IMG/VR virus record: IMGVR_UViG_3300047564_001818
DNA from: a virus
Taxonomy: Duplodnaviria; Caudoviricetes
DNA: 64,000 nucleotides
Reading direction: 5' to 3' (one strand)
Position 1 is the stretch's first letter; every line of letters begins with the position of its first letter. Made by a program: the position numbers and the translations under genes. Shown here one piece after another: positions 8,401 through 34,795 of this stretch. A model generated the notes under the pieces. The model saw only the letters and a list, made by a program, of their open reading frames with translations, was not told the DNA's origin and ran no database searches.

Positions 8401-11400
8401 TTGTATACCTTGCACACCTTGTATACCTTGACTACCTGTGTAGCCGCCAGGATCGCCTTTGGACCCAGTAAAGCCTAGAGGTCCTTGGTCACCTTCAAAA
8501 CCTTGGTCACCTTGCGGGCCTCTAGATCCAGTAAATCCGATAGGTCCTAGGTCTCCTTGGTCACCTCGGTCACCCTTACTACCTATAAAGCCTCTGCTGC
8601 CTGTAAATCCAGTATCGCCTTGTATACCTTGATCGCCTCGGTCACCTTTTGATCCAGTGAAGCCAATGCCAGCACTACCTGTAAAACCTACACTACCAAC
8701 GTCGCCTTTGCTGCCTACAAAGCCAGAGTCACCTTTGCTACCTGTAAAGCCTTTTAGATCTGTAAAGACTATAATGCCTGATATGCTTGGATTTTGCACA
8801 CTTTGATAATAGATAAAATCTTGTATATCACCTGGCGCAGTAAACGCTATTGAAGTTCCGCTTAAACCAATTTGACTACCTGCAGGAAATCCTGGAACAA
8901 CATCTGTGCTGTTGTTTAAGTCAAGTCTAAATGCAATTTGGTTGTTGATGCCTAAAGATTCTAAATTAAAGAAATAGCTTTGTCTTTTTACTAATCTCAA
9001 TGAAGGGTTGTTTTCATTAAAGCCAACTACAGTAAAGTTGCTACTGCTGTTTCCAAAAACATATTCTATTCCGCTTTGGCTACCGGTGTAACCAATGCTT
9101 CCAGTATATCCCAAATCACCACGTGATCCTACAAAACCAGTAATACCTCTGCTGCCAGTAAAACCAATTGATCCTGTAAATCCTCTAGGACCTCGACCAC
9201 TGCCGCCAGTGTCTACAAACTGTGTTAGTGTAAAGTTACCACTAACAGTTGTAGGTTTACTGTCTGTTATAAAAACAGTATATGATGACGTGTTGAATGT
9301 TTGAGTAACTGTACCATTCAAAAAGCCTGTTGTAGTGTCAAATGTTAATCCTGCAGGTAAAGTTTCTGGTTCTATTCTGTAGGATAAAGGTGCTGTTCCG
9401 CCTGTTACTAAGATAGGTTGAAATGCGTTTGTTGCATTCAACTCTAATTCATAGCTAGCGTTGTTGTTAACTACACTCAAAAGTTGTGGCGGTGTTTCAA
9501 CAATTTGTAGGTTAAACTGTGCTGTTGCAGTAGTGTTAGCTTCGTCTGTAACAGTCACAGTATAAACTGTGTCTGCACTCAAAATCAATGGCGTATTTTC
9601 GAGTGTTCCATTGCTGTTATAAGTCAAGGAACTAGGTAAACTAGGTGATATTGTATAGGTTAGTACGCCTGCTCCGCCTGTTGCTGTAACTGGTCTAGCA
9701 GCAGGTTCTGTTCCGCCTACTGGTACAAACTGCACTAGAGTAATTGTAGGCGTGTTTACAGTGATATTGATAGCAGCAAATGTTAACACAAGATCAAACT
9801 GTGCTGTTTGCGTTGTAACTAAATCACTTACTGAAATTTCAACTGTATAAGTTCCTGAGCTAGAAGTTGCTCTACCTGTAATTCTACCTGTAGCAGTGTT
9901 AAAACTTAAACCACTGGGTAACTCTGTTACAGAATAAACATAAGCGCCTTCACCTTGAGATGCAATCACAGGAACAAAGTTTGCATTTGTGCCAATCGTT
10001 AAATTAACAGACGAATTAGGAACTGTTAGTGTTAAGGGCGGCGGTACTGCAACAGTTAAACTAAAAACTCCTGTTTGAGTTCTACTAAAACTGTCTTCTA
10101 ATGTTATAGTAAACGTACTGGTTGATAGAGCTTGTGTAGGTGTGCCGCTGATTACACCATTGTTAAAAATTAATCCTGTTGGCAGTGCAGGCGAAACACT
10201 TAATGTTCTAGGTGCTAGACCTCCTGTGCCTGTTGCTACTGGAGACAGATCGGTGATTGCATTGTTTCTAGTTAAATTTATTGTGGGCCTGTTTATAGTT
10301 AATGCTAGTGCAGGATCATTAACGATCAATGTAATTGTAACAGAATCAGTTTGTGGAACAGTAAATGTATCTGTAGCAGTAATAACATATGCTGTGTTGC
10401 TGAGTTCAGTTGGGTTGCCACTGATTACTCCGCTTGCTGTATTAAAAGTTAAACCGTTGGGCAATGCAGGAGATATATTAAATCTAATAACACCGAAACC
10501 TTGACTACCTGGCACTACACGTAATGGAGTAATTGAGCCTGCGGTTCCTCTTGTTAATGTAAAACTAGATTGGTTATCTATCAGCGCAATGTCAAGTGCA
10601 GGAGGATTGACCACATTTAGACTAAATGTTCTAGTATCAGTCTGTCCTTCGCTGTCAGTTACTCTTACAGTAAAACCTGTACTCGATAGCACAGTGTTTA
10701 CAACTCCAGTGATCTGTCCTGCACTGTTTAAAGTTAATCCTGTGGGCAGTCCTGCACTGGCATTGCTGGTTTCAAATACTTCAAAAGTATAAACTCCACT
10801 GCCGCCGGAGGCTGTTGCAGGAATTAACGGTGTTGCTATTGAGATAGTTCTAGTTAGCGTAAAACTATTTTGTGTTTGTGTTAGAACAAGAACACTGTTT
10901 ATTACATTTAATCTAAATTCACTGCTGGTGGTCTGTCCTGCACCATCTGTTACTGTTACTGTGTAATTGGCTGCAACTGCTGTTGCTGTTGGTGTACCAC
11001 TAATAAAACCTGTGTTTGAAAAACTCAGTCCTGCAGGCAGTGCAGGCGATACTGCGTAGGTTAGTGTACCAAATCCGCCAACAGCAACCACAGGTCTAAA
11101 CTGTGTAAATGCTTCGTTAACAGTTAAGCTAGTAAGAGCAGGTGGCACAGGATTAGCTATGCTGGTTAATGCAGGTGCTGCATCTACTCTTAAATTAAAG
11201 GTGCCTGTTAAACTTTGACTAGCACTGTCGCTAACAGTTACAGTATAGGTTGCTTGTGAACTGGTAACAGTAGGTGTACCTGAAATAAAACCTGTGCTGG
11301 TATTGAGGGTTAATCCTGTAGGTAGTGCAGGTGTAATTGCATAGGTTAACGGAGTTTCTCCGCCGTTACCTCTTACTGGTCTTACGCTTTCAAGTGCTAC

Positions 11401-23708: not shown

Positions 23709-23847
23709 AGAATGTATTTCAATGTTTTCAAGGGGTTAGGAAATAAATTTATTTTGTAAGTCATTGATCTACAAGGAAAGTTTTTGGTTGTGCTCGTGTG
23801 TAGATGTGCTATTGTATACGAGTAGGGCAACACAAGAGGGAACGAAG

Positions 23848-24147
23848 ATGGGATACTTTCTTTACGATCGGCACAACACTCGCATAGTCAGCAAGGAGTA
23901 CAAGACTCATGCTGCGGCACAGGCAGAACTTACTCGTCGTCGTAAGGCTGCTGCGGGTGAATGGGGTGTGCTTCACGCAGAAGACGATCCGCTGTTCTTG
24001 TTGGGCATTGCAGAGAAAGAGTACTACTTCCGTCACATTGAGCGCTCTGTGACTCGTGTTAACTTGATGACGGGCGCGGAGTACCGTGAGAGCGTGAACA
24101 CGCCTTTGGCTTGCTCGCCTGCTTCAGAAACCTACTGGAGCCAGTGA
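23848..24147 (+). CDS. Early hypothetical protein
   Basis: Start revised to MGYFLYD after promoter, leader and GAGGG RBS. Confidence 0.75.
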   Translation: MGYFLYDRHNTRIVSKEYKTHAAAQAELTRRRKAAAGEWGVLHAEDDPLFLLGIAEKEYYFRHIERSVTRVNLMTGAEYRESVNTPLACSPASETYWSQ

Positions 24148-24219
24148 TTAGAGGTTGACAAGCCCTACTCCCTGTGCTATATATATGTGGAGTAGGGCAA
24201 CACAACAGAGGGCGACACA

Positions 24220-24375
24220 ATGAATCCAGAAATTGAGTCCATGCTGCAATTGACTGTTGAGCAATTGCTAAACGAGGATGGTGTAGGATGCGATCCTGCG
24301 GCTTTGGCTGCGGCACTGCGCGAGTTTGCGGAAATGATTGAAGCAGACATTGAGGCTGGCGCTTACGCAGAATAA
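24220..24375 (+). CDS. Early acidic 51 aa protein (absent from ORF track)
   Basis: MNPEIESMLQ...; own promoter, leader and RBS. Confidence 0.7.
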   Translation: MNPEIESMLQLTVEQLLNEDGVGCDPAALAAALREFAEMIEADIEAGAYAE

Positions 24376-24437
24376 CTGTTGACACAGCCTTGCAGATGTG
24401 CTATAACTTACACATAGGGCAACAAGAGGGAACTGAG

Positions 24438-24629
24438 ATGGAAAATTTGGCATTCTACTCTAAGTATGACTTTGTCAAACTGCTTCGTCAGAAGCGCGGC
24501 AAAGACTATACCCTTGGCTGGTTGGAGATGGCATATGCTATGCCGCCCACCACTGAGGAGTATGAGCAGGAGATGATCCGCAAGGAGATTCCCGTTCTGC
24601 AGGCGCTGCCGGACTACGACGGCGTCTAA
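24438..24629 (+). CDS. Early hypothetical protein
   Basis: MENLAFYSKY start after promoter, leader and RBS. Confidence 0.7.
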   Translation: MENLAFYSKYDFVKLLRQKRGKDYTLGWLEMAYAMPPTTEEYEQEMIRKEIPVLQALPDYDGV

Positions 24630-24700
24630 GGGGTTGACAAGCTTCAAGGCTTGTGCTATAACTAACATATAGAGCAACACAGTGTAGAGGGATACACACA

Positions 24701-25114
24701 ATGGGAACTCGTTCAACTATCGCAATTGAAAACGCAGACGGCACTGTCACTGGCATCTACTGCCACTGGGACGGCTACCTGAGCCACAATGGGCAAATCC
24801 TGCAAGACCACTATACTGACGAAGCCCGGGTGCGTGAGTTGATTGCTCTGGGCCACATCAGTTCGCTTGGTGCTGAGATTGGCACTGCCCATGACTTTGA
24901 TGCGGCTCCGCGTGGCGAGTGCAATGCCTACGGGCGTGATCGCGGCGAGCGTGATGTTGATGCTTATACTGAGCACAACTGGCGTCAGTACTGTGCTGAG
25001 CACGGACAGGAATACGACTACCTGTTCACTCCTGGGAAGGGCTGGCTGGTCCGCACCTACAACGGCATCTACGACCTTGCTCGTGCATTGGCAATCGAAA
25101 CCGAAGAAGCCTAA
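24701..25114 (+). CDS. Early phage protein (MGTRS...YCHWDGY type)
   Basis: YCHWDGY motif; own promoter. Confidence 0.8.
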   Translation: MGTRSTIAIENADGTVTGIYCHWDGYLSHNGQILQDHYTDEARVRELIALGHISSLGAEIGTAHDFDAAPRGECNAYGRDRGERDVDAYTEHNWRQYCAEHGQEYDYLFTPGKGWLVRTYNGIYDLARALAIETEEA

Positions 25115-25186
25115 GGCAGAAAGTGGTTGACACAGCCCTGCAGATGTGCTATTGTATATGAGTAGGGCAACACAAGAGGGACTGAG

Positions 25187-25426
25187 ATGTACAAGATCTA
25201 TGGCGACTATGGTTACACCAGCGAATGCCTGCTGCACACAGCCGACACTCGTTCAGAAGCCCTGCGCTGGGCAGACGACTATATCGCAGACGACTTTGGC
25301 GGCTATGCTGTGATTGAGGTTGCGGTTCACCTGAGCAATGGCGAATACAGCACCATCCATACCTACCGTGCAGAAGACTACGAGTACGAAGGCGATGACG
25401 ATTTTGCACTCTTGGAGGACTTTTAA
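25187..25426 (+). CDS. Early acidic hypothetical protein
   Basis: Own promoter, leader and RBS. Confidence 0.7.
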   Translation: MYKIYGDYGYTSECLLHTADTRSEALRWADDYIADDFGGYAVIEVAVHLSNGEYSTIHTYRAEDYEYEGDDDFALLEDF

Positions 25427-25427
25427 G

Positions 25428-25583
25428 ATGCTCTACTATGTGATGTGGGGCGTTGAGATCATCGCTGTATGCACTCGACCAGAAGATGCTCATGCAATGG
25501 CTGGCTTTGATTACAAGACCAAAAAAACCTACACTGTGGTAGCGAAAATGGTTGACAACACTGTAGAAGGTGCTATTGTATAA
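25428..25583 (+). CDS. Early hypothetical 51 aa protein
   Basis: GGAGG RBS; MLYYVMWG start. Confidence 0.55.
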   Translation: MLYYVMWGVEIIAVCTRPEDAHAMAGFDYKTKKTYTVVAKMVDNTVEGAIV

Positions 25584-25620
25584 GAGTAGGGCAACGCAAT
25601 AGCAGAGAGGGACACACGCT

Positions 25621-26025
25621 ATGGCATACGTTTCGCAAGAAGACAAAGCTAAACTGACTCCGGCGATCAAGGCTGTGCTGGCTAAGTATGGCATGAAGGG
25701 CACGATTGCTGTGCGTCATCACAGCACTTTGGTAGTCACTGTCAAGAGCGGTGCTATCGACTTCGGCGGCGACAACATTGATGTGAACGAGTATTGGATC
25801 GACCAGCACTACGAGGGCAAGGCTCGTAAGTTCCTCAACGAACTGCACAAGGCTATGATGGGACCGGACTGGTTCTGCGAAGACGACGCGATGACTGACT
25901 ACTTCCACCGCAGCCACTACTGCTCCATCCGCATCGGCAACTGGGGTCGTCCGTATGTGTTCATGGGACGCAGCAAGGACGGTATGGTAAACGGTGTGGC
26001 AGAAGAAGCCTACACCTTTGCCTAA
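25621..26025 (+). CDS. Early phage protein (MAYVSQE type)
   Basis: Own promoter, leader and RBS; 134 aa. Confidence 0.8.
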   Translation: MAYVSQEDKAKLTPAIKAVLAKYGMKGTIAVRHHSTLVVTVKSGAIDFGGDNIDVNEYWIDQHYEGKARKFLNELHKAMMGPDWFCEDDAMTDYFHRSHYCSIRIGNWGRPYVFMGRSKDGMVNGVAEEAYTFA

Positions 26026-26098
26026 ATAATGGTTGACAGCACACCACTGTCGTGCTATAACTAACACATAGGGCAACACTGCTAGAGGAGCACAGCAG

Positions 26099-26500
26099 AT
26101 GGCATACGGTGATTTTGTTACGTCAGTTGGCGAAACGGTTGGCATCGTGCGTCAGCACCGCCACGGCACAATCTTGATGAGCCGCTTTGGCACTGTTACC
26201 AAGATCAACGGACACGGCCACATCTACGTCCAAAGCGAAGACAAGGAGTATCGCTTCACTCGCCGCGGCTATGCCTACAAGGACGACTATGGTCCTGGCT
26301 TGATGCACGCCGCTAAACTGCGGATGATCCAAGAGAGTGAGACTCGTCGCAAGGAGCAGGTGCGGATTGCTCGTGCTATGGAGCAGGAACTCAAGGAAGG
26401 CTACTCCTACTCGGGCCGCTTCTTCCCCACCGCAGAGCGTATTGCTGCTCTAAAAAATCTGCTTGCAGACTTGGAGAAAGTGGTTGACAGCACGATATGA
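26099..26500 (+). CDS. Early hypothetical protein
   Basis: Own promoter, leader and RBS. Confidence 0.75.
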   Translation: MAYGDFVTSVGETVGIVRQHRHGTILMSRFGTVTKINGHGHIYVQSEDKEYRFTRRGYAYKDDYGPGLMHAAKLRMIQESETRRKEQVRIARAMEQELKEGYSYSGRFFPTAERIAALKNLLADLEKVVDSTI

Positions 26501-26542
26501 TCGTGCTATAACTATAGAGTAGACAGCAACAAGAGGGCAAAC

Positions 26543-26821
26543 ATGATGCTGAATGTGAATGACACTGTTCGTGCTTACAGCGGCCGGCCTGGCTGCATGT
26601 GCGGCTGCAATGGCACCTACAACGAAGGCGAGCGGGCTCGCAAGATGGCACTGACTGCGCTGCTGAAGAACCCTGCGGTGCGCTTGCAGACTTGGAAGCC
26701 CTCCGGCGGCGATGCTGGTTGCTTGTATGTGGAAACTGCAACTCGCAACCGTGTGCTGTATCTGACTGAAGAGGGTGCTGCGAAGTTGGCTGCACAGTTC
26801 CCTGAAATGGTTGACAAGTAA
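26543..26821 (+). CDS. Early hypothetical protein (YSGRPGCMCGC motif)
   Basis: Own promoter, variant leader, GAGGG RBS. Confidence 0.75.
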   Translation: MMLNVNDTVRAYSGRPGCMCGCNGTYNEGERARKMALTALLKNPAVRLQTWKPSGGDAGCLYVETATRNRVLYLTEEGAAKLAAQFPEMVDK

Positions 26822-26868
26822 GAACGTTCGTGCTATAACTTACACACAACGAGGCAATGGAGGGTAAC

Positions 26869-27420
26869 ATGCCGAACTGGTGCTCAAACTCAATCACTAT
26901 CACTGGTCCTGTGGAGAAGATTGCTGCGCTGTGGACCGAGGCTTCCACAGCCGGCGAACACAACGCTCTGCTCAATGCTCTGTGTCCGATGCCTAAGGAA
27001 CTCTTAGAAGGTGAAGCATGGTATGGCTGGCGTGTGGCCCACTGGGGAACCAAGTGGGACATTGACATGCAAGGTCTCGAGTTTGAAGAGTTCTCGGACG
27101 GCACGGCTGCCGTCACAGGTTGGGCAGACAGTGCATGGAGCCCGCCCGTTGATGCGTTCCAGGCTTATAGCAATGAGAATCCTGATGTGATGATGGAACT
27201 CAAATACTTCGAGCCCGGCATGGGGTTTGTAGGTGTATGGGACAACGAAGGTGGAGATGCCTATTGGGAAGGTGTTGACGAGTTGCTGGACACCACAGAG
27301 GAAGAAGACGCTGTGCTGCATGAACTGCTGGAATACTTTGACGTGGCCAGTTGGTTTGAGTCTGACGACGAGAACCTCGAGATTGATCTTGACGGCGGTG
27401 TGAGTGCGACGAACGAATAA
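26869..27420 (+). CDS. DUF1281/YubB ferredoxin-like-domain protein
   Basis: MPNWCSN.I.I.G, WR..HWGTKWD, SAWSPP, YFEPGMGFVG. Confidence 0.75.
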   Translation: MPNWCSNSITITGPVEKIAALWTEASTAGEHNALLNALCPMPKELLEGEAWYGWRVAHWGTKWDIDMQGLEFEEFSDGTAAVTGWADSAWSPPVDAFQAYSNENPDVMMELKYFEPGMGFVGVWDNEGGDAYWEGVDELLDTTEEEDAVLHELLEYFDVASWFESDDENLEIDLDGGVSATNE

Positions 27421-27490
27421 TAATGGTTGACACGGCTCTACTCATGTGCTATTGTATATGAGTAGGGCAACGCTGCTAGAGGAGCACACG

Positions 27491-27775
27491 ATGGCACGTA
27501 AGACGATCGAAGTTGGCAAGGTTCTTAAGATTGCGAATAACTTCCTTGCTGCGAAGCATACCACTGCTGATGAGCGCGAGAGTGTGTGTGCTGTGATGGA
27601 AGCTATCTTGTTTGAGACTGATAACTATCGCGGCTTTGCTTACCTGCCCAAAGAGAACTACGCCCACGAGACGGGCTTTGATCACGATGGCACTCGTCGT
27701 CGTTACTTCGTCAGCGGCACTATCGATGCTGACTACGAAGCAGAAGACCGCAACATCAACAAGATCCGGGCATAA
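27491..27775 (+). CDS. Early hypothetical protein
   Basis: MARKTIEV start after promoter and leader. Confidence 0.75.
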   Translation: MARKTIEVGKVLKIANNFLAAKHTTADERESVCAVMEAILFETDNYRGFAYLPKENYAHETGFDHDGTRRRYFVSGTIDADYEAEDRNINKIRA

Positions 27776-27785
27776 GGAGAACGAC

Positions 27786-27950
27786 ATGAACCCGTTGGCT
27801 TTTTTTGCGATGGTGGGCTTTGTTGTATTACTGATCGTCAGCACCGCAGCTTATACCTTTTCTAAATGCGGCTGGTATACTTTTGCACTGGGCAACGGTG
27901 CTGCGATGGCTGCCGTCACTGGCATGTGTGATAAAATTAATGGAGAATAG
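27786..27950 (+). CDS. Small membrane protein, paralogue 1
   Basis: MNPLAFFAMVGFVVLL...GMCDKINGE; AAGGAG RBS. Confidence 0.7.
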   Translation: MNPLAFFAMVGFVVLLIVSTAAYTFSKCGWYTFALGNGAAMAAVTGMCDKINGE

Positions 27951-27951
27951 C

Positions 27952-28119
27952 ATGGACCCTTTGGCTTTTTTTGCAATGGTGGGCTTTGTACTGTTGTTGG
28001 GGATTGGCACCATAGCTTACACCTTTTCCAAATGCGACCAGTATGCCTTTGCACTGGGCAAGGCGGCGGGGGTGTCGGTGCTGATCACTGGCATGTGCGA
28101 TAAAATCAATGGAGAATAA
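27952..28119 (+). CDS. Small membrane protein, paralogue 2 (tandem duplicate)
   Basis: MDPLAFFAMVGFVLLL...GMCDKINGE. Confidence 0.7.
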   Translation: MDPLAFFAMVGFVLLLGIGTIAYTFSKCDQYAFALGKAAGVSVLITGMCDKINGE

Positions 28120-28120
28120 C

Positions 28121-28234
28121 ATGGACTGGACCATCGAGGAATATCTTGAGTTTGAACGGCACTTGCTAGAACAAGCAGAAGCGGACGAAGACGAAATTCC
28201 GGTTGACGAACCTGTCTACTGGTGCTATAACTAA
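28121..28234 (+). CDS. Acidic 37 aa peptide
   Basis: MDWTIEEYLEFE...; GGAG RBS; runs through the next promoter. Confidence 0.45.
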   Translation: MDWTIEEYLEFERHLLEQAEADEDEIPVDEPVYWCYN

Positions 28235-28262
28235 CACATAGGGCAACACAAAGGACGCTGAG

Positions 28263-28544
28263 ATGAATAACTTCGCAACTGCTGTCACCGCAATCCAAAA
28301 GATGAACAACGACGAACTGAACGCTGTGGTTCGTGCGATCAAACTGCGCCGCACCTACCTTGCTCGTCAGAGTGCTAACACTTTCCAAGTTGGCGACCGT
28401 GTGAGCTTTGCTGCTCGCGGTATGCAGGTGCTGGGCACTGTAACCAAAGTCAACATCAAGACCATCCAAGTCAAGCAGGACAATGCCTACACCACGTGGA
28501 AGGTACACGCAAGTCTTTTGCATCCTGTCAAAGAAATGGCTTGA
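28263..28544 (+). CDS. Early protein with SH3-like C-terminal domain
   Basis: FQVGDRVSF..G.V.KVN.KT pattern; own promoter and leader. Confidence 0.75.
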   Translation: MNNFATAVTAIQKMNNDELNAVVRAIKLRRTYLARQSANTFQVGDRVSFAARGMQVLGTVTKVNIKTIQVKQDNAYTTWKVHASLLHPVKEMA

Positions 28545-28597
28545 CAGGTTGCTGTATACGTGCTATAACTAACACATAGAAACACAAGAGGGACACG

Positions 28598-28786
28598 ATG
28601 AAAGATTACATGACACTGATCGCAATCATTGACCGGCTAGGCTATATTGCAGAACTTCCGTCAGCTAAGATCCGCCAAGCACTGGATCAATACATTGCTC
28701 AACTGGAAACAGAAGTTCGTCAAATTGATGAAGAGACGGAACGTCAATGTCGAATTGATGACATGTTCGAGAACGTGCCAGTGTAA
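28598..28786 (+). CDS. Early hypothetical protein
   Basis: Own promoter and GAGGG RBS; precedes the tRNAs. Confidence 0.7.
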   Translation: MKDYMTLIAIIDRLGYIAELPSAKIRQALDQYIAQLETEVRQIDEETERQCRIDDMFENVPV

Positions 28787-28795
28787 ATAGACAAC

Positions 28796-28871
28796 GCCCG
28801 GTTAGCCCAAAGGTAGAGGCAACAGACTTAAAATCTGTCAAGCGTCGGTTCGACCCCGACACTGGGTACCA
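28796..28871 (+). tRNA. tRNA-Leu(UAA), short variable loop
   Basis: Acceptor GCCCGGT/ACTGGGT, anticodon arm ACAGA-CTTAAAA-TCTGT, GTTCGA, encoded CCA. Confidence 0.9.
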
Positions 28872-28876
28872 AACAT

Positions 28877-28953
28877 GGGGGATTAGCTCAATTGGTTAGA
28901 GCGACGGTCTCATAAACCGCAGGTTATCGGTTCAAGTCCGGTATCCCCTACCA
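28877..28953 (+). tRNA. tRNA with CAU anticodon (elongator Met or Ile2)
   Basis: Acceptor GGGGGAT/ATCCCCT, loop CTCATAA, GTTCAA, CCA; lacks initiator features. Confidence 0.88.
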
Positions 28954-28959
28954 AATATT

Positions 28960-29036
<77 letters not shown>

Positions 29037-29039
29037 AGT

Positions 29040-29097
29040 TAGCAGGAGTTGAGATTGCGCTGTGTTGCCCTATGCTGCGTTGGATCTCCTCCTGCTA
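29040..29097 (+). ncRNA. Putative antisense sRNA hairpin whose loop is complementary to the shared early-mRNA 5' leader
   Basis: Stem TAGCAGGAG/CTCCTGCTA + GAGAT/ATCTC + GCGC/GCGT; loop TGTGTTGCCCTATGCT contains the reverse complement of CATAGGGCAACACA. Confidence 0.7.
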
Positions 29098-29127
29098 CGC
29101 TGATAGAGTTTAACCAAGGAGAACACC

Positions 29128-29307
29128 ATGGCTATCTGTCCTAACTGTCATACACCAGACAAGAACTTCTTTGCGCCTGCTTGCCATGCTTGCAACGAAC
29201 AGATTCCTTTGATCCAGCAGATCATTGTTAGCTTGATCTTCTTGTCAGTCAAGGCAGTGTTTGTGATTGCGATGTTGTGGTTCCTTTTTGTTTATCTTCC
29301 AGGTTGA
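29128..29307 (+). CDS. Zn-ribbon (CxxC...CxxC) plus transmembrane 59 aa protein (absent from ORF track)
   Basis: MAICPNCH...ACHAC then a hydrophobic tail; AAGGAG RBS. Confidence 0.65.
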   Translation: MAICPNCHTPDKNFFAPACHACNEQIPLIQQIIVSLIFLSVKAVFVIAMLWFLFVYLPG

Positions 29308-29358
29308 CAACTGCTGCGTAGAGTGTATACTGAACAAGTAATGAGCAAAGGGCACAAC

Positions 29359-30360
29359 ATGACTAACGTTACAATCATTGACGGCACGTACAAGATCCGC
29401 GGCGCTGACACTTCAGTAGCTGGTCTGACCTTTCCGTTGGTAGAACCGTTCCGTATGGGCAAGACTGGCGGCTATGTCACTGTGGATGGTTCAGCTGTGA
29501 ATGGCTTTCCGGCTCGCAACATCAAGATCCGTGTGAACAGTGAGCAGGACTACGAACTGCTAGAAGGCCCCGCTGTATACAACTCTAGAACAGAAACTGA
29601 TGCGGAGATTGTTGAGCGCATCCGTAGTCGCTTTGCTATGCTGGGCGAGATGACCAAGGCTGTGAAGAAGGGCGATGTACGTGCTATGATCGTATCAGGT
29701 CCTCCGGGTGTTGGCAAGAGCCACGGTGTTGAAGAAGTATTGGATCGATACAAGATGATGGAGACCATGGGCGGCAAGAAGACACACGAAGTGATCAAAG
29801 GCGCTATGAGCCCGATCGGACTGTACTGCAAGCTGTTCAAGATGAGCGAAGCTGGAAATGTGGTTGTGTTCGATGACTGTGACAGCATCTTCCAGGAAGA
29901 CCTAAGCTTGAACATCCTCAAAGCTGCACTAGACAGCAAGCAGAATCGTTGGATCCACTGGAACACTGACAGCTTCAAACTGCGCAACGAAGGTGTGCCT
30001 GACAAGTTCAAGTTTGAAGCTAGTGCAATCTTTATCACCAACTTGAAGTTCGACAAGGTCAAAGGCAAGCTTAGAGAACACCTAGAAGCATTGGAGTCAC
30101 GCTGCCACTACATGGATCTAACGATCGATACCGAACGTGATAAGATGCTGCGCATCCGGCAAGTGATTGAAGATGGTATGCTGGATGTGTACACACTGAG
30201 CGATGACATCAAAGAAGACATCATCGACTTCGTGGACATCAACAAGAGCCGACTGCGTGAACTGAGTCTGCGCAGTGTGCTCAAGGTAGCAGACCTGGCA
30301 GTAAGCTTTCCAGACCGCTGGCAGGACTTTGCTGAGAATACGGTGATGCGTCGAGCCTAG
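29359..30360 (+). CDS. P-loop AAA-type ATPase
   Basis: Walker A GPPGVGKS, Walker B VVVFDDCD, ALESRC; own TTGACA promoter. Confidence 0.85.
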   Translation: MTNVTIIDGTYKIRGADTSVAGLTFPLVEPFRMGKTGGYVTVDGSAVNGFPARNIKIRVNSEQDYELLEGPAVYNSRTETDAEIVERIRSRFAMLGEMTKAVKKGDVRAMIVSGPPGVGKSHGVEEVLDRYKMMETMGGKKTHEVIKGAMSPIGLYCKLFKMSEAGNVVVFDDCDSIFQEDLSLNILKAALDSKQNRWIHWNTDSFKLRNEGVPDKFKFEASAIFITNLKFDKVKGKLREHLEALESRCHYMDLTIDTERDKMLRIRQVIEDGMLDVYTLSDDIKEDIIDFVDINKSRLRELSLRSVLKVADLAVSFPDRWQDFAENTVMRRA

Positions 30361-30375
30361 CTCCGCATGCCGTTG

Positions 30376-30551
30376 GGACAATGGACCGCCCTCGTCCATT
30401 GTCCACATGTGGACTGAGTGTGCCCTCGCTCAGTTCACGAAGGCCGAAGCAGCCGATAAGAGCTGTTCGGTAAGGCTGGTAGACGAGCCCTCACGCTCTG
30501 CCAGAACAGCCCGGAGTTGGCGTGCCCTCTGCCGCTCCGGGCTATTTTTTT
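30376..30551 (+). ncRNA. Putative multi-hairpin sRNA with four GCCCUC loops, ending in an intrinsic terminator
   Basis: Hairpins 30376-30404 (loop CGCCCTC), 30409-30438 (TGCCCT-C), 30443-30471, 30476-30504 (AGCCCTCA), 30508-30543 (GTGCCCTCT) followed by T7. Confidence 0.75.
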
Positions 30552-30614
30552 GGTTGACAAGCCGTGCAGAAGGTGCTATTGTTAACACATAGGGCAACAC
30601 GGAAGGGCAAGAAG

Positions 30615-31025
30615 ATGTACACCTTTGATGAACAGATTGTATCCGATCTCCACAAAGACGCTCGTGGCTACCGCCCAGATGCATACTTTTGGGAAGAGTG
30701 GAGCCAAACCGGCGACGACACTCGCCAAGCTATGTGGGACAACCTGCTGCAGGAACTGGCCGCTGAGACAGCACGTCAACAGGACGCCTATGCTCGTGCA
30801 GAGATTGAGTTCCATCAGCGTGTGCAAGGCATGATGCTCTCAGGTGCCAAGGACGAACTGACTGCTATCCGTTGGATCCTCGAAGCCGAACAGTTCACCG
30901 AGAACGATTGGGCTTACGGTTCGGACTATGTGGCTTTCCACTTCAACTTGCCCTACAAAGGCCTATTTGATCAGCAGATCCAGACTGTCCTCAACGAGAT
31001 GGAGACCCAGGCTGACCTTGGCTAA
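30615..31025 (+). CDS. Early phage protein (SDLHKDARGYRP type)
   Basis: Start revised to MYTFDE after promoter and leader. Confidence 0.8.
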   Translation: MYTFDEQIVSDLHKDARGYRPDAYFWEEWSQTGDDTRQAMWDNLLQELAAETARQQDAYARAEIEFHQRVQGMMLSGAKDELTAIRWILEAEQFTENDWAYGSDYVAFHFNLPYKGLFDQQIQTVLNEMETQADLG

Positions 31026-31154
31026 GTTATTGATAACATTGACAAAAACTTTTTTGTAAGTGCTTGTTTTCTAACAAAACATTTCTCTTGCAATGTGCGC
31101 TGTATAGTGTATAACTGTATTTGTAAGCAACACAGCATATGCGAGGAGCACAAT

Positions 31155-31433
31155 ATGCAAAACACTGTAGCAAATACTAATTACGTTTTTGTAATGCTTG
31201 ATGACGCTACAAACGCAATTGTACTGCGTATTAATAAAACTGTTGACGTTTTTTGCAATAGTGCAAACGACATAATTGCTGCATTTAAACAATATAATAT
31301 TACGGACTGCGACACTATTATGGCGAGCAGCGACGTGGATTTTGCTACGGAGTTTGACTATGCGTACGACAGTGCAGTACACGACATGCTTGACGAAGCT
31401 TTTGACGCACTAAATTTTAAACAATACGTTTAA
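31155..31433 (+). CDS. Early acidic protein encoded without TC/CC dinucleotides
   Basis: MQNTVANTNY; GAGGAG RBS; CTTGCA-N17-TATAAC promoter. Confidence 0.7.
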   Translation: MQNTVANTNYVFVMLDDATNAIVLRINKTVDVFCNSANDIIAAFKQYNITDCDTIMASSDVDFATEFDYAYDSAVHDMLDEAFDALNFKQYV

Positions 31434-31522
31434 AAAAACAGCAGCACACAGCACTTTTTACTTGACAAGTGCTGTGTGCTGTGCTATAAGTTACACATAG
31501 GGCAACACAAGAGGGACTGCAC

Positions 31523-31714
31523 ATGACACGCGAAGAACTGTTTGCTAATATTGCACAAATTGCTGCTGACGCATACGACAACACAGATGCTGACGAAGTG
31601 CAAAGCTGGGATGCATACGAAGCAGCAAAGCAGATTGTTGCTGCAATGCAAGCGTTTGGCTACGACATTGCAGACATGTTGGAGCAAATAGAGGAAGACG
31701 CAGACGAAGCGTAA
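31523..31714 (+). CDS. Early acidic protein encoded without TC/CC dinucleotides
   Basis: Own promoter, leader and RBS. Confidence 0.75.
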   Translation: MTREELFANIAQIAADAYDNTDADEVQSWDAYEAAKQIVAAMQAFGYDIADMLEQIEEDADEA

Positions 31715-31816
31715 CACAAAAAAAACAGCAGCGCACAGCAACTTAGGGGTTGACAGTTGCTGTGTGCTGTGCTATTGTTAACACATAGGGCAACACAACA
31801 CAAGAGGGACCTCAAG

Positions 31817-32005
31817 ATGAATACCACAAAGCGCAACGCTCAGTTCGAAGCAGCCTTTGATCGAGTGATCGAAGCCCAGCTGTTGATGGAAGGTATTGCT
31901 GTTCTCACTGCTGACAGCCACGCAATGGACATTCAGGCACGCCTGCAGAAGATTGTCAAAGAGATGTGGCAGTTCAAAGGCAACGTTGCTCAAGGACGCA
32001 AATAG
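31817..32005 (+). CDS. Early hypothetical protein
   Basis: MNTTKRN start after promoter and leader. Confidence 0.7.
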   Translation: MNTTKRNAQFEAAFDRVIEAQLLMEGIAVLTADSHAMDIQARLQKIVKEMWQFKGNVAQGRK

Positions 32006-32068
32006 AGGTTGACACAGCCCTGCTCATGTGCTATTGTATATGAGTAGGGCAACACAACGGAGGGCAAG

Positions 32069-32212
32069 ATGAAGATCCAGATCAAAAGCGAAGACATCCA
32101 ACGCCGCAACCCTGTTGCACGTGAACTCGCCGCTGCTCAGTTCCGTGCCCGCACTGTGCGTGATCGCACCAAATACACCCGCAAACAGAAACACCGCAAA
32201 GGAGAACTTTGA
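32069..32212 (+). CDS. ArfA-like small basic protein (absent from ORF track)
   Basis: RNPVARELAAAQFRARTVRDRTKYTRKQKH resembles the ArfA core (FRxR...Y.RK.KH). Confidence 0.55.
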   Translation: MKIQIKSEDIQRRNPVARELAAAQFRARTVRDRTKYTRKQKHRKGEL

Positions 32213-32388
32213 TGACCTTCTACCACTACTTCAAAACCGTTTGCCTTGTGATCGCCAGCCTTGTGGCCTTTGTTGTGATCATGAGCCCAGAGACTGTGGG
32301 GCAATGGCAAGCCCGCAAGGCCATTGCATACGATCAGATCTGGATTGAATGGGTTGGTGACTGCGACTGCACCGAGCCGCTAGAGTAA
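32212..32388 (+). CDS. Small membrane-anchored protein (absent from ORF track)
   Basis: MTFYHYFKTVCLVIASLVAFVVIM...; TGATG coupling. Confidence 0.55.
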   Translation: MTFYHYFKTVCLVIASLVAFVVIMSPETVGQWQARKAIAYDQIWIEWVGDCDCTEPLE

Positions 32389-32477
32389 GCGAGAATCCGC
32401 TGACGGTCAATAAAACCCGTTGACTATCCTGTAGAAGCTGCTATAACTACTATACGAACGACAAAAAGGAGAAACCA

Positions 32478-33065
32478 ATGCGGATGATTCACATCCTCGG
32501 CGGCGTTGCTTCTTCAGCCGTGATCGTTGCAATGGCAGTGGTTTACTTGACGGCAGATGAGGCAAAGGCGGCCGTCAACCCCAAAGAGATAGTATACATC
32601 GAACGAGTGGTGGAGCGTGTGGTCCATGTGCCCATGCCCACTAGACCTGGACAGGATCCCAAGGCCATCTTTGCTGATGCAAACGAAGAAGACCGCTACT
32701 GCCTTGCTCAGAACATATACTTCGAAGCACGTGGTGAAAGTCTACTGGGACAAGCTTTGGTAGGTTGGGTAACACTGAACAGAGTTCAGAACTCTGACTT
32801 CCCCGAAGATATCTGCACTGTGGTTTGGCAGAAGGGACAGTTCAGCTGGACACATGATGGCAAGAGCGATCGACCTCGAAACAAAGAGTCTTGGGCCGCT
32901 GCTCAGATCGTTGCCGATGAAGTGATCCAAGCTTACGGAGTAGAACGTGATCCCACTGAAGGCGCAACCTACTTCCATGCTGATTCAGTTAACCCAAGTT
33001 GGGCCAAGAGCTTCGAACGAGTGGTTCGTATCGATAATCACATCTTCTACGCAGATCGAGGTTGA
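32478..33065 (+). CDS. sleB: Cell wall hydrolase, SleB/Hydrolase_2 family
   Basis: CLAQNIYFEARGE, V.LNRV...FP..IC.VVWQ..QFSW, GATYFH, IDNHIFY; N-terminal membrane anchor. Confidence 0.9.
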   Translation: MRMIHILGGVASSAVIVAMAVVYLTADEAKAAVNPKEIVYIERVVERVVHVPMPTRPGQDPKAIFADANEEDRYCLAQNIYFEARGESLLGQALVGWVTLNRVQNSDFPEDICTVVWQKGQFSWTHDGKSDRPRNKESWAAAQIVADEVIQAYGVERDPTEGATYFHADSVNPSWAKSFERVVRIDNHIFYADRG

Positions 33066-33117
33066 CAACACCCTACTCTGGTGCTATAGTATTAGAGTAG
33101 GGCAAGAGGAACACGTC

Positions 33118-33267
33118 ATGAACATTGATGAGCTCAAGACACTGTGGCGGTTTTGGACTGCGGGCGGCGTGTGGCAAGGTTGCCGTGCTACAGGGCAGAT
33201 AGTCCGTGCGGGCACCTACTCTGCGGTGTTGAAGCAGGCGGAATGGTTTGAACAAAGCACGTGGTGA
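33118..33267 (+). CDS. Early 49 aa protein
   Basis: MNIDELK start after promoter and leader. Confidence 0.6.
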   Translation: MNIDELKTLWRFWTAGGVWQGCRATGQIVRAGTYSAVLKQAEWFEQSTW

Positions 33268-33473
33268 ACCAGATGTGGCAAGTAAGAACACAATTCTCCA
33301 AACCACCAGCAGAGAATCCTACAGGAGCGTGGGAGTGGAACACGGTGTTGGTGGATACCGAGGCAGAAGCCGAAACATGGTGGCACACTCGTACCACTGT
33401 TAAGACGGTGGGCCGCAGAGTCTGCACCATGTTCAACCCTGCAGGCGATTTGGTTAGAGTCCAATTCAAATAG
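33261..33473 (+). CDS. Early hypothetical protein
   Basis: Overlaps the previous stop; 70 aa. Confidence 0.55.
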   Translation: MVNQMWQVRTQFSKPPAENPTGAWEWNTVLVDTEAEAETWWHTRTTVKTVGRRVCTMFNPAGDLVRVQFK

Positions 33474-33533
33474 TGGTTGACACACCGACTGTGTCGTGCT
33501 ATAACTAACGCATAGGGCAAGAGGAGCAAGACA

Positions 33534-33674
33534 ATGATCAAGTTCACTACGGGGCTGCTGGGGCTGATTGCGATTGCTAGCGCACATGACAACGTCAGCT
33601 TGCTGTTGTTAGCGGCGGCTGCAATGCCTTTCCTAACGCTGATGATTGCTTCCATTCGTGACATTGCGGAGTAA
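33534..33674 (+). CDS. Small hydrophobic early protein (absent from ORF track)
   Basis: MIKFTTGLLGLIAIA...; own promoter and leader. Confidence 0.6.
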   Translation: MIKFTTGLLGLIAIASAHDNVSLLLLAAAAMPFLTLMIASIRDIAE

Positions 33675-33778
33675 CACTGTGAAGCAGATCGGCTTTATGT
33701 GGGTCGCAGTGACATATCACAGTTGACAAACACCACGACAGATGCTATAACACAGCATAGGGCAACAAGGAGCACGAC

Positions 33779-34060
33779 ATGAAACTGAACGCTGCAAACA
33801 TCCAACGGATCCAAGGCTACCTCCGCAACGTTGCTGAAGTGGATCCCAACGACACTATCGCTAACAGAGCAAGCCAACTGGCTGTGGACTTGGAACTGGT
33901 GTGTGTTCCGTTTGAATACGACACACTGAGTGAAGCAGAACAGGTGCTGGTACAGTATGCCGTCAGCAAGCGCGAGCAATATGTATTGCTGCAGGGGCAC
34001 CGTCACGCAACTGATCTACAGCGTGTAGAAAAACAGCGCAGAACACTCAAAAGAGGTTGA
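33779..34060 (+). CDS. Early hypothetical protein
   Basis: Own promoter and leader. Confidence 0.7.
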   Translation: MKLNAANIQRIQGYLRNVAEVDPNDTIANRASQLAVDLELVCVPFEYDTLSEAEQVLVQYAVSKREQYVLLQGHRHATDLQRVEKQRRTLKRG

Positions 34061-34116
34061 CACTAGATCAACTGATGTTAGTATTAGTGTATAGGGCAAA
34101 CAAGAGGGAACACACT

Positions 34117-34311
34117 ATGAAGAGACTTGCTGCTATCCTAGCACTGATTGCTGCTGCCTCGGGCCTGTCGGGCTGTGCTGCCACTGGCATTGATCACAGT
34201 GAAGATCGTGCTGCGCACGACGCATACCTTGAGAGCATCTATACCAAGTATGATCCCGAATATGTAGACGACTGCTTCTACTACGAAGAGTTGGTGTGCG
34301 AGTTCGAATAA
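34117..34311 (+). CDS. Early lipoprotein
   Basis: MKRLAAILALIAAASGLSGC lipobox. Confidence 0.7.
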   Translation: MKRLAAILALIAAASGLSGCAATGIDHSEDRAAHDAYLESIYTKYDPEYVDDCFYYEELVCEFE

Positions 34312-34402
34312 ACGGTTGACACACTGACTGTTCGACTGTAGTATCAGTGTATAGGGCAAGGCAAGAAAGACTTCTTGCTTCAACACAAAGAGGGAATACA
34401 CT

Positions 34403-34795
34403 ATGATGATCACCATGGACACTATCGCAGTGCGTGACGAAACTCTCACTGCGGCTGCTGAGGCTGCACAGGACTACATCCAGGAATGGAAGCGCAACAC
34501 TGGCGGCAATGCCTACGGTGAGCCTGCATACTGCGGCTTTGCTTGGGTCACTGTGTATCCCAAGTTCGATCACAAAGGCAACACCCGACAGGGCAAAGAT
34601 GAACGCAAACTGTTTGACACTGTGATGACTGAGCTAGGCCTGCGCAAAGACTGGACTGGCAAGGCTTATGAACTGTGGAACCCCAGCAAGTGGGGCGGGC
34701 AGAGCATGGATGTCAAGGAAGCAGGTGCTCGCGCTGCGGCTAAGGTACTGCAGAAGTATGGATACGCTGCCTACGCAGGCAGCAGAGCAGACTGA
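34403..34795 (+). CDS. Early phage protein (CGFAWV...KEAGARA type)
   Basis: Own promoter, leader and GAGGG RBS. Confidence 0.8.
   Translation: MMITMDTIAVRDETLTAAAEAAQDYIQEWKRNTGGNAYGEPAYCGFAWVTVYPKFDHKGNTRQGKDERKLFDTVMTELGLRKDWTGKAYELWNPSKWGGQSMDVKEAGARAAAKVLQKYGYAAYAGSRAD

What the first reader, a model, noticed from the sequence alone, without database searches (positions are those of the whole stretch)
30376..30551. Five-hairpin RNA with four GCCCUC loops complementary to the early genes' GAGGG ribosome-binding site
Seen in sequence: between the ATPase stop and the next promoter are five consecutive strong hairpins. Four have loops carrying GCCCTC (CGCCCTC, TGCCCTC, AGCCCTCA, GTGCCCTCT) although their stems are unrelated, and the last is followed by T7. 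GCCCUC pairs with GAGGGC. Fourteen promoter-proximal early cistrons use GAGGG as SD, and the AGGGC in the leader is also complementary to GCCCU. Established: alphaproteobacterial Cuckoo/CcsR and AbcR sRNAs use multi-hairpin CU-rich anti-SD loops. Inference: this is a phage analogue tuned to GAGGG instead of the host-type GGAGG. It would be a 3'-UTR-derived repressor selective for the phage's own early mRNAs, forming a two-RNA system with the 29040 hairpin.
Basis: partly seen in the sequence, partly recalled or inferred. Interest (0 to 1): 0.92.

Follow-up and report, generated by a model that had tools for sequence, protein, structure and literature searches.

The report
Phage RNA hairpins matching early ribosome sites
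Behind an early ATPase gene of an uncultured freshwater T4-like phage lies a five-hairpin RNA whose loops are the exact complement of the unusual ribosome-binding word of the phage's early genes. Related phages that changed one sequence changed the other too, so the two very probably base-pair to control early protein synthesis.

Summary
Positions 30375-30551 fold into five strong hairpins (z = -5.6). Four loops carry GCCCUC, and the last hairpin is an intrinsic terminator with U7. The element is the 3'UTR of an early nrdC.10-like AAA ATPase gene.

All 24 related contigs analysed keep 1-5 YGCCCUC copies there, mostly in hairpin loops, although the stems are unrelated. The commonest 6-mers upstream of their + strand starts, GAGGGC and AGGGCA, are the reverse complements of the commonest UTR 6-mers.

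A sister clade of 67 loci carries GAUUCGCUCCC loops and GGAGCGA(A) ribosome sites. At least five further lineages have other matched pairs of 7-10 nt. The ATPase's own ribosome site matches its own 3'UTR in every lineage that has such an element.

Best reading: a 3'UTR anti-Shine-Dalgarno RNA that pairs with the phage's early ribosome-binding sites, its own included, and probably represses them. The pairing is supported by covariation. Transcript processing, trans action and the sign of regulation are untested.

It works like Cuckoo/CcsR sRNAs and the icaR 3'UTR but is not a member of either; Rfam gives no match.

The scan noted similar elements on other phage DNA (e1-5364471, e1-5338585, e1-5379006). 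I found no publication describing it.

The parts
29304..29331 (+). Sigma70-type early promoter of the ATPase transcript (TTGACA-16-TATACT)
   Evidence: 11 of 12 consensus matches. No other + strand promoter-like site lies before 30554.
29347..29355 (+). The ATPase's own ribosome-binding region (AAAGGGCAC). AGGGCAC is complementary to the GUGCCCU loops of hairpins 2 and 5.
   Evidence: best duplex -14.4 kcal/mol; longest own 5'/3'UTR complement is AGGGCACA.
29359..30360 (+). Early nrdC.10-like AAA ATPase gene whose 3'UTR is the element
   Evidence: Pfam AAA; phrog_1250; homologue annotated nrdC.10 in Aeromonas phage 25.
30343..30371 (+). Hairpin spanning the ATPase stop codon (GCGUCGAGC / GCUCCGC). 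In several relatives its loop also carries GCCCUCAC.
   Evidence: folds: L005, L011, L015 and L018 have the motif in this loop.
30375..30404 (+). Hairpin 1: 11-bp stem, 7-nt loop CGCCCUC
   Evidence: -18.8 kcal/mol.
30409..30438 (+). Hairpin 2: 12-bp stem, loop (G)UGCCCU(C)
   Evidence: -18.1 kcal/mol.
30443..30471 (+). Hairpin 3, without the motif. Conserved core AAGCAGCC-N-AAGAGCUG with a covarying outer stem, shared with the sister clade. Role unknown.
30476..30504 (+). Hairpin 4: loop region GAGCCCUCAC. The GCCCUCACGCUCUGC word is conserved in relatives.
   Evidence: -11.9 kcal/mol.
30508..30551 (+). Hairpin 5: loop UGCCCUC, followed by U7. This is the intrinsic terminator of the ATPase transcript.
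   Evidence: -24.3 kcal/mol.
30554..30617 (+). Next early cassette: promoter, leader AUAGGGCAACAC, ribosome site GAAGGGCA and the ATG at 30615. An example of a predicted target.
   Evidence: -13.0 kcal/mol.
29040..29097 (+). tRNA-trailer hairpin with apical loop UGCCCU. Its 14 nt at 29061-29074 are antisense to the early leader CAUAGGGCAACACA. It is a second carrier of the same loop word.
   Evidence: homologous GCCCUC-loop hairpins follow the last tRNA in L004, L009, L017, L162 and L165.
23790..34420 (+). Early region holding the predicted targets: 14 starts preceded by GAGGG, others by AAGGGCA, and most transcripts beginning with AGGGCAACAC

Best explanation
The 3'UTR of the early nrdC.10-like ATPase mRNA is a structured RNA of about 190 nt that ends in its own terminator. 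It displays four YGCCCUC loops that base-pair (5-7 bp, G/C-rich, loop-to-single-strand) with the extended Shine-Dalgarno word GAGGGC(A)/AAGGGCA and with the AGGGC at the 5' end of the phage's early mRNAs, the ATPase mRNA itself included.

Pairing occludes the ribosome-binding site. As the stable, hairpin-protected RNA accumulates, whether as part of the mRNA or after processing, translation of early messages is damped. This gives delayed negative feedback specific to one temporal class, while middle and late genes with ordinary AGGA/GGAG sites are spared.

Shown: the structure, the conservation of the loop word, its complementarity to early sites, and the co-variation of both partners across clades. 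Inferred: that the RNA is stable or processed, that it acts in trans as well as in cis, and that the effect is repression.
For: (1) Structure: z = -5.56.
(2) All 24 clade-A loci (ATPase 62-81% identical) keep GCCCUC in the same 3'UTR, 69 copies in all, with 41 distinct 5' arms among 55 hairpins.
(3) Unbiased k-mer census. The top two UTR 6-mers are GCCCTC and TGCCCT. The top two 6-mers at -22..-3 of 415 + strand starts are GAGGGC and AGGGCA (26% each), their exact reverse complements.
(4) Reciprocal switch. The sister clade B (67 loci) has 130 copies of UCGCUCC, 105 of them in hairpin loops. 30.5% of its 895 starts carry GGAGCG. The cross-matches are 0.1-0.2%.
(5) In clade D, where two ORFs follow the ATPase, the CCGAUUCGCUCCCGG hairpin sits at the end of the operon and the ribosome sites are GGAGCGA.
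(6) Further lineages have other pairs: GAGUGAGA, AGGAGCG, UAGGAGCUAA (10 nt), UGGAGCAACA (10 nt) and GGAGCCAAC (9 nt).
(7) The longest complement between a locus's own 5' region and its own UTR is 8 nt or more in 29% of 153 loci, against 5-7% in three null models.
(8) In the window, the loops' predicted duplex energy is -13.5 kcal/mol on average with 10 early start regions and -6.0 with 35 late ones (Mann-Whitney p = 1e-6). Reversed loops or clade-B loops give about -8.
(9) A second GCCCUC-loop hairpin on a different transcript (the tRNA trailer) argues for trans action.
(10) Loop number tracks regulon size: lineages where only the ATPase site matches have one element, and clades where many early genes share the word have up to five loop copies (A) or up to three (B).
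(11) Literature precedent: the icaR 3'UTR anti-SD (PMC3868564); Cuckoo/CcsR (PMC4615179, PMC8034643); aSD-like words hundreds of nt from the RBS that pair with it and repress (PMC12697547).
Against: There is no expression evidence at all. The only RNA run that holds the phage shows two short contigs upstream of the element and none on it, and those are contigs rather than reads.

The seed pairings are short (5-7 bp), and the window's commonest site, GAGGGA, matches only 5 nt.

One 3'UTR made from one promoter would face more than 20 strongly transcribed early mRNAs, so stoichiometric repression needs high stability or catalytic decay.

The shared early site could be a by-product of cassette homogenisation (PeSL-like recombination). 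In that case only the ATPase's own site would be the selected partner.

The clade switches are few independent events, roughly 6-8.

The sign of regulation is not determined by sequence.
Confidence: 0.6

Rival explanations
1. Purely cis autoregulation, as in icaR. The 3'UTR loops fold back only onto the ribosome-binding site of the ATPase's own mRNA to limit its translation or trigger its decay. The match to other early genes is a side effect of shared promoter/leader cassettes.
For: The ATPase's own site matches its own 3'UTR in every lineage that has an element, including lineages where no other gene matches: L236 and L234 with 10 nt, L222/L224 with 9 nt. In the window, AGGGCAC pairs with GUGCCCU (7 nt, -14.4 kcal/mol). 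Long-range aSD-RBS pairing within one mRNA is documented (PMC3868564, PMC12697547).
Against: This does not explain 2-5 redundant loops, which appear precisely in the clades where a quarter or more of early starts share the word. It does not explain the extra GCCCUC hairpin on the tRNA transcript. It also does not explain why the non-16S-complementary extension (GCA or CGAA) is kept on many unrelated early genes.
Confidence: 0.25
2. The hairpins are a protein-binding platform or decoy, in the manner of CsrB/RsmZ. A phage or host RNA-binding protein, perhaps the ATPase itself (by analogy with CcaF1 and CcsR), recognises YGCCCUC loops. Complementarity to the ribosome sites is incidental or secondary.
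For: Several hairpins present one loop word with a conserved loop-closing context (GGAC-CGCCCUC-RUCC; GGAU-GUGCCCUC-GUCC), which is typical of protein sites. Hairpin 3 is sequence-conserved across clades and has no complement in the leaders. In the CcsR system the upstream gene product binds the RNA (PMC8034643).
Against: It would require a coincidence repeated in at least six lineages: the loop word is the exact reverse complement of the commonest ribosome-site word, with reciprocal cross-matches of 0.1-0.2%. A protein could still assist the pairing.
Confidence: 0.08
3. Only terminators and 3'-end stabilisers or insulators between early cassettes, with no sequence-specific role. Alternatively, a DNA-level feature such as a cruciform or binding site read on either strand.
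For: Hairpin 5 plus U7 is a canonical intrinsic terminator. Stacked hairpins protect 3' ends. GAGGGC and GCCCTC are the same double-stranded word.
Against: One hairpin is enough to terminate. Stability needs stems, not a conserved loop word. The loop word is kept while the stems drift. The word sits at a fixed distance from the ATG in the targets and in single-stranded loops here, which indicates a reading at RNA level. G-U pairs in the stems (for example in hairpins 2 and 5) work only on the + strand transcript.
Confidence: 0.05

Closest known systems
Cuckoo / CcsR sRNAs of Alphaproteobacteria (PMC4615179, PMC8034643)
   Same: 2-4 adjacent hairpins, each loop carrying the same C/U-rich anti-SD-like word, with stems that vary freely. 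In Rhodobacter they are cut from the 3'UTR of a protein gene (ccaF1).
   Different: The loop word is GCCCUC (or UUCGCUCC and others in sister clades), not CCUCCUCCC. The element is encoded by a phage, always behind an nrdC.10-like ATPase gene. The loop word co-varies with a private, clade-specific extension of the phage's own early ribosome sites. No Rfam model matches.
Staphylococcus aureus icaR mRNA 5'UTR-3'UTR interaction (PMC3868564)
   Same: A C-rich anti-SD motif in the 3'UTR is complementary to the ribosome-binding site of the same mRNA. Here the ATPase's own site always matches its own 3'UTR.
   Different: Here there are several loop-presented copies, the same word is carried by many other early genes, a further copy sits on a tRNA transcript, and the context is a phage.
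UCCC / C-rich loop sRNAs of Firmicutes (RNAIII, Rsa RNAs; as summarised in PMC4615179)
   Same: C-rich hairpin loops make the first contact with G-rich ribosome-binding sites of several target mRNAs.
   Different: No sequence or structural homology. The targets here are the phage's own early genes, and the loop word extends beyond the 16S-complementary core.
T4 RegB endoribonuclease (PMC1702504, PMC3014915)
   Same: A functional analogy only. RegB is an early-expressed phage factor that inactivates early mRNAs by recognising a word (GGAG) in their Shine-Dalgarno regions, giving class-specific shut-off.
   Different: RegB is a protein nuclease that needs S1. Here recognition would be by RNA-RNA pairing, and the word is GAGGGC.
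Long-range aSD-like sequences within bacterial mRNAs (PMC12697547)
   Same: Pyrimidine-rich aSD-like 8-mers hundreds of nt downstream pair with the RBS, block initiation and promote decay.
   Different: Those sequences are generally selected against in genes. Here they are conserved, multiplied and displayed in loops.

Membership tests
Cuckoo/CcsR RNA family | 2-4 adjacent hairpins with one shared loop motif and highly variable stems | tested here: met
   2-5 motif hairpins per locus; 41 distinct 5' arms among 55 hairpins.
Cuckoo/CcsR RNA family | Loop motif CCUCCUCCC | tested here: not met
   The loops are YGCCCUC.
Cuckoo/CcsR RNA family | Match to the Rfam covariance models of the family | tested here: not met
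   no Rfam family reaches its gathering score. At E up to 10 only three unrelated chance hits appear.
Cuckoo/CcsR RNA family | Maturation from a 3'UTR by RNase E, and Hfq binding | not testable with these tools
   No usable RNA reads.
AbcR / alpha-r15 sRNAs | Rfam model match and CUCCCA-type anti-SD loops | tested here: not met
icaR-type 3'UTR-5'UTR anti-SD interaction (a mechanism class, not a sequence family) | 3'UTR motif complementary to the SD region of the same mRNA | tested here: met
   AGGGCAC(A) against GUGCCCU, -14.4 kcal/mol. The same holds in clades B and C and in L213, L222, L231, L234 and L236.
icaR-type 3'UTR-5'UTR anti-SD interaction | Pairing demonstrated in vivo or in vitro, with an effect on translation or decay | not testable with these tools
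   Needs reporters, toeprinting or structure probing.
Rho-independent terminator | G/C-rich hairpin directly followed by a U run | tested here: met
   Hairpin 5 (30508-30543, -24.3 kcal/mol) plus U7 at 30545-30551.
Tandem-repeat RNA arrays (type III antitoxin ToxI-like, CRISPR-repeat mimics) | Head-to-tail near-identical repeat units | tested here: not met
   The stems share no sequence; only the loop word recurs.

The most novel reading that the evidence does not exclude
A large radiation of uncultured T4-like (often jumbo) phages runs a private translational address code. Early genes carry a clade-specific extension of the Shine-Dalgarno word (GAGGGCA, GGAGCGAA, GGAGUGAGAA and others). This word is read not only by the ribosome but also by a phage RNA that displays its complement in 1-5 hairpin loops, behind the nrdC.10-like ATPase gene and after the tRNA cluster. 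The RNA acts in trans as an RNA-only timer that shuts off the whole early class, in place of a RegB-type nuclease. The code and its reader co-evolve as mutually orthogonal pairs.
Probability: 0.45. Interest if true: 0.9.

Novelty: new variant of a known kind. Interest (0 to 1): 0.84.

Why it matters
If true, this would be a virus-encoded anti-Shine-Dalgarno RNA that regulates the virus's own temporal gene class. I found no description of such a system in the searched literature.

The evolutionary record is unusually clear. At least six different matched word pairs occur across hundreds of environmental phage contigs. That record amounts to a natural compensatory-mutation experiment.

It would explain why early genes of these phages carry ribosome-site extensions that do not pair with 16S rRNA. 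It would also add an RNA-based route to early shut-off beside T4's RegB.

The clade A and clade B pairs could serve as naturally orthogonal SD/anti-SD parts for synthetic biology.

The hypothesis can be tested with simple two-plasmid reporters, without culturing the phage.

Tried and rejected
Rfam at gathering score over the whole window and at E up to 10 on 30200-30700: only tRNAs and chance hits.

blastn of the region against 50,697 cultured phage records: no match. By protein, the nearest cultured relatives of the ATPase are only 34-43% identical.

nrdC.10 homologues in cultured phages. Aeromonas phage 25 and Cronobacter phage S13 show no SD/3'UTR match. Pseudomonas phage PA5oct has an 8-nt match, but it lies in a terminator stem, which is within chance. 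No cultured model was therefore found.

Sequencing runs. No RNA holder was listed in the first search. One metatranscriptome holds 5% of the words. When laid, it gave two near-identical contigs at 29157-29303 and 29434-29584 and nothing on the hairpins. These are contigs only, so nothing can be said about expression.

Pfam RegB (PF10715) in five related records: no hit, but the control genomes did not ring either, so this is uninformative.

Protein-coding reading of the stretch (ORF 30407-30592): rejected, because relatives differ by whole hairpins and indels.

Minus-strand reading (GAGGGC loops acting as ribosome sites): no start codons follow them, and the U7 tail and the G-U pairs fit the + strand only.

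Fine-scale covariation inside clade A (loop UGCCCUU with AAGGGCA sites in L007; AGCCCUC with GAGGGCU): suggestive only.

No whole genome is held for the window.

Full report
OBSERVATION. The stretch is as described. The nrdC.10-like AAA ATPase ORF ends at 30360, and five consecutive hairpins follow:
- 30375-30404, loop CGCCCUC;
- 30409-30438, loop (G)UGCCCU(C);
- 30443-30471, loop GAUAA, no motif;
- 30476-30504, loop with GAGCCCUCAC;
- 30508-30543, loop UGCCCUC, then U7 at 30545-30551.

The next sigma70-type promoter lies at 30554-30582. The 211-nt region folds at -100.6 kcal/mol against -74.5 +/- 4.7 for shuffles (z = -5.56). GCCCTC occurs 7 times in 64 kb, and four of these lie within 142 nt here. 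The stems share no sequence. A further hairpin (30343-30371) spans the stop codon.

CONTEXT. The window is a piece of an uncultured freshwater T4-like phage. DNA holders are freshwater, aquatic, wetland and soil metagenomes, no whole genome is held, and cultured relatives of the ATPase are at most 43% identical.

Positions ~23.8-34.4 kb on the + strand form an early region of small genes. Each has a near-consensus sigma70 promoter, a leader beginning (A/G)UAGGGCAACAC, and a ribosome site that is mostly GAGGG(A/C) or AAGGGCA. The ATPase has its own such promoter (29304-31) and the site AAAGGGCAC. No promoter-like site lies between it and the hairpins, so the element is the 3'UTR of an early mRNA and ends in that mRNA's terminator. 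Minus-strand (middle and late) genes use ordinary AGGA/GAGG/GGAG-type sites or none.

CONSERVATION OF THE LOOP WORD. The ATPase protein was used to fetch 32 and then 80 further loci from IMG/VR. In all 24 loci analysed from the window's clade (clade A; ATPase 62-81% identical) the same 3'UTR carries GCCCUC, 69 copies in all. The hairpins' outer stems are unrelated: 41 distinct 5' arms among 55 hairpins. In five related records totalling ~630 kb, clustered GCCCTC occurs only at this site, apart from one chance-like pair.

COMPLEMENTARITY AND CO-VARIATION. An unbiased census gives a clean answer.
- In clade A the two commonest 6-mers of the 3'UTRs are GCCCTC and TGCCCT.
- The two commonest 6-mers in the -22..-3 window of 415 + strand ORF starts are GAGGGC and AGGGCA, 26% each. 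Among 200 promoter-proximal leaders they reach 103 and 117. These are the exact reverse complements.

The sister clade B was enlarged to 67 distinct loci.
- It carries 130 copies of (CC)GAUUCGCUCCC(GG) in the same 3'UTR, 105 of them in hairpin loops.
- 30.5% of its 895 starts carry GGAGCG, usually as AAGGAGCGAA.
- Cross-matches are 0.1-0.2% in both directions.

In clade D two small ORFs follow the ATPase. There the CCGAUUCGCUCCCGG hairpin plus a terminator sits ~830 nt further on, at the end of the operon, and the ribosome sites are again GGAGCGA.

Other lineages show other pairs between the ATPase's own site and its own 3'UTR:

| Lineage | Matched word at the ATPase site |
|---|---|
| Clade C | GAGUGAGA (loops UUCUCACU / UCUCACUC) |
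| L213 group | AGGAGCG |
| L236 | UAGGAGCUAA (10 nt) |
| L234 | UGGAGCAACA (10 nt) |
| L222/L224 | GGAGCCAAC (9 nt) |
| L231 | GAGUGAG |

Over 153 non-identical loci, the longest complement between a locus's own 5' region and its own UTR is 8 nt or more in 29%. Shuffled, reversed and same-sense controls give 5-7%.

On an ATPase tree, clade A is sister to B+D and clade C is separate. An AT-rich group placed with clade A appears to have neither the array nor GAGGGC sites, though only part of it was censused.

The parts of these words that go beyond the GGAG/GAGG core do not pair with the conserved CCUCC core of 16S rRNA (PMC10783764). Their conservation on many unrelated early genes is best explained by the phage RNA partner.

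ENERGETICS IN THE WINDOW. Best duplexes of the four loops average -13.5 kcal/mol with the start regions of 10 promoter-proximal early genes. With 35 minus-strand genes they average -6.0 (Mann-Whitney p = 1e-6). Reversed loops or clade-B loops give about -8 on the early set.

A SECOND CARRIER. The hairpin directly after tRNA-Arg (29040-29097) has the apical loop UGCCCU and 14 nt antisense to the early leader. Relatives L004, L009, L017, L162 and L165 have a long hairpin with a (G)UGCCCUC or CCGCCCUCA loop directly after their last tRNA. The same loop word is thus also released from the tRNA transcript.

MECHANISM. Most likely (0.6): the loops pair with early ribosome-binding sites, the ATPase's own included, and occlude them. 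This gives delayed, class-specific negative feedback as the hairpin-protected RNA accumulates.
- Pairing as the selected function is well supported by covariation; I put it near 0.85.
- Trans action on other early mRNAs: about 0.6.
- Repression rather than protection or activation: about 0.65.

These last two are inferences from precedent: icaR (PMC3868564), Cuckoo/CcsR (PMC4615179, PMC8034643), and long-range aSD words (PMC12697547).

The main rival is cis-only autoregulation of the ATPase mRNA (0.25), favoured by the lineages where only that gene matches. It does not explain the multiplied loops, the tRNA-linked copy, or the shared word on many genes. A protein-binding platform (0.08) and plain terminators or a DNA-level signal (0.05) do not account for the repeated exact reverse complementarity.

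COMPARISON WITH KNOWN SYSTEMS. The element works like Cuckoo/CcsR: adjacent hairpins, one loop word, free stems, 3'UTR origin. It also works like the icaR 3'UTR. It is a member of neither. The loop word differs, no Rfam model matches, and the host is a phage. Functionally it parallels T4 RegB, which inactivates early mRNAs through the GGAG of their ribosome sites (PMC1702504, PMC3014915). Seven full-text searches found no paper describing such a phage element.

Notes from this scan report the same idea on other phage DNA (e1-5364471, e1-5338585, e1-5379006, e1-5353237). They are not independent evidence, but they agree with what I tested here on my own loci.

LIMITS. There is no transcript evidence. 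No cultured model was found. Gene starts in the census are heuristic (the 5'-most ATG of ORFs of 50 aa or more), so the percentages are lower bounds. The clade switches are few independent events. Clade B loci were filtered for the presence of UCGCUCC; this removed only L315, which lacks the motif, and L317, which is a clade A contig.

VERDICT. This is a real, conserved, structured 3'UTR RNA whose loop word co-evolves with the phage's early ribosome-binding word. It is a new variant of a known kind (anti-SD loop RNAs and 3'UTR anti-SD elements), with a phage-specific, clade-switching 'private' code. Interest is high.

Noticed in passing
window 29040-29097; L004, L009, L017, L162, L165 just after their last tRNA: The tRNA-trailer hairpin with apical loop UGCCCU (14 nt antisense to the early leader in the window) has homologues in relatives. 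These are long hairpins with (G)UGCCCUC or CCGCCCUCA loops directly after the tRNA cluster, so tRNA processing could release them.
   Followed up: partly
window 30443-30471; L004, L017, L032, L253, L255, L257, L258, L273, L275, L291: The motif-less hairpin 3 has a sequence-conserved core, AAGCAGCC-N(3-4)-AAGAGCUG, with a covarying outer stem. It is shared by clades A and B even though their loop words differ. Its role is unknown; it could be a processing or protein-binding site.
   Followed up: partly
window 30343-30371 and the same place in L005, L011, L015, L018: A hairpin spans the ATPase stop codon (GCGUCGAGC / GCUCCGC). In several relatives its loop carries a further GCCCUCAC. The conserved GCUCC could pair with the second early ribosome-site class, GGAGC(A).
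   Followed up: no
L171-L197 (clade D), ~0-830 nt after the ATPase stop: In this clade the ATPase is followed by a small Cys-rich ORF (C..W/YIGP...C..GKSYC..HY) and another small ORF before the anti-SD hairpin and terminator, so the hairpin marks the end of the operon rather than of the ATPase gene.
   Followed up: no
Clade B loci (e.g. L241-L312), 20-80 nt after the terminator: G-rich words such as GGTCGGGG / GGTGGGG, followed by ATATAA-like A/T-rich stretches, recur downstream of the array instead of sigma70-type promoters. This may be a different promoter type in these jumbo phages (contigs up to 383 kb).
   Followed up: no
window 29157-29303 and 29434-29584: A wetland metatranscriptome (X21) holds two 151-nt contigs with 0 and 3 differences to the window, so this phage or a very close relative is present in an RNA library. 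Whether that reflects transcription or carried-over DNA cannot be told.
   Followed up: partly
window 5419-12891 (- strand): A 2490-aa protein with 11 collagen-repeat stretches and 9 He_PIG Ig-like stretches (Pfam), presumably a fibre protein.
   Followed up: no
L318 (Pseudomonas phage PA5oct, MK797984.1 248735-249933): The nrdC.10-like gene (annotated thioredoxin) has 8 nt just 3' of its GGAG (AGUAGCAU) complementary to the 3' arm of its own terminator hairpin. This is within chance expectation, but it sits in a cultured phage and could be tested.
   Followed up: partly
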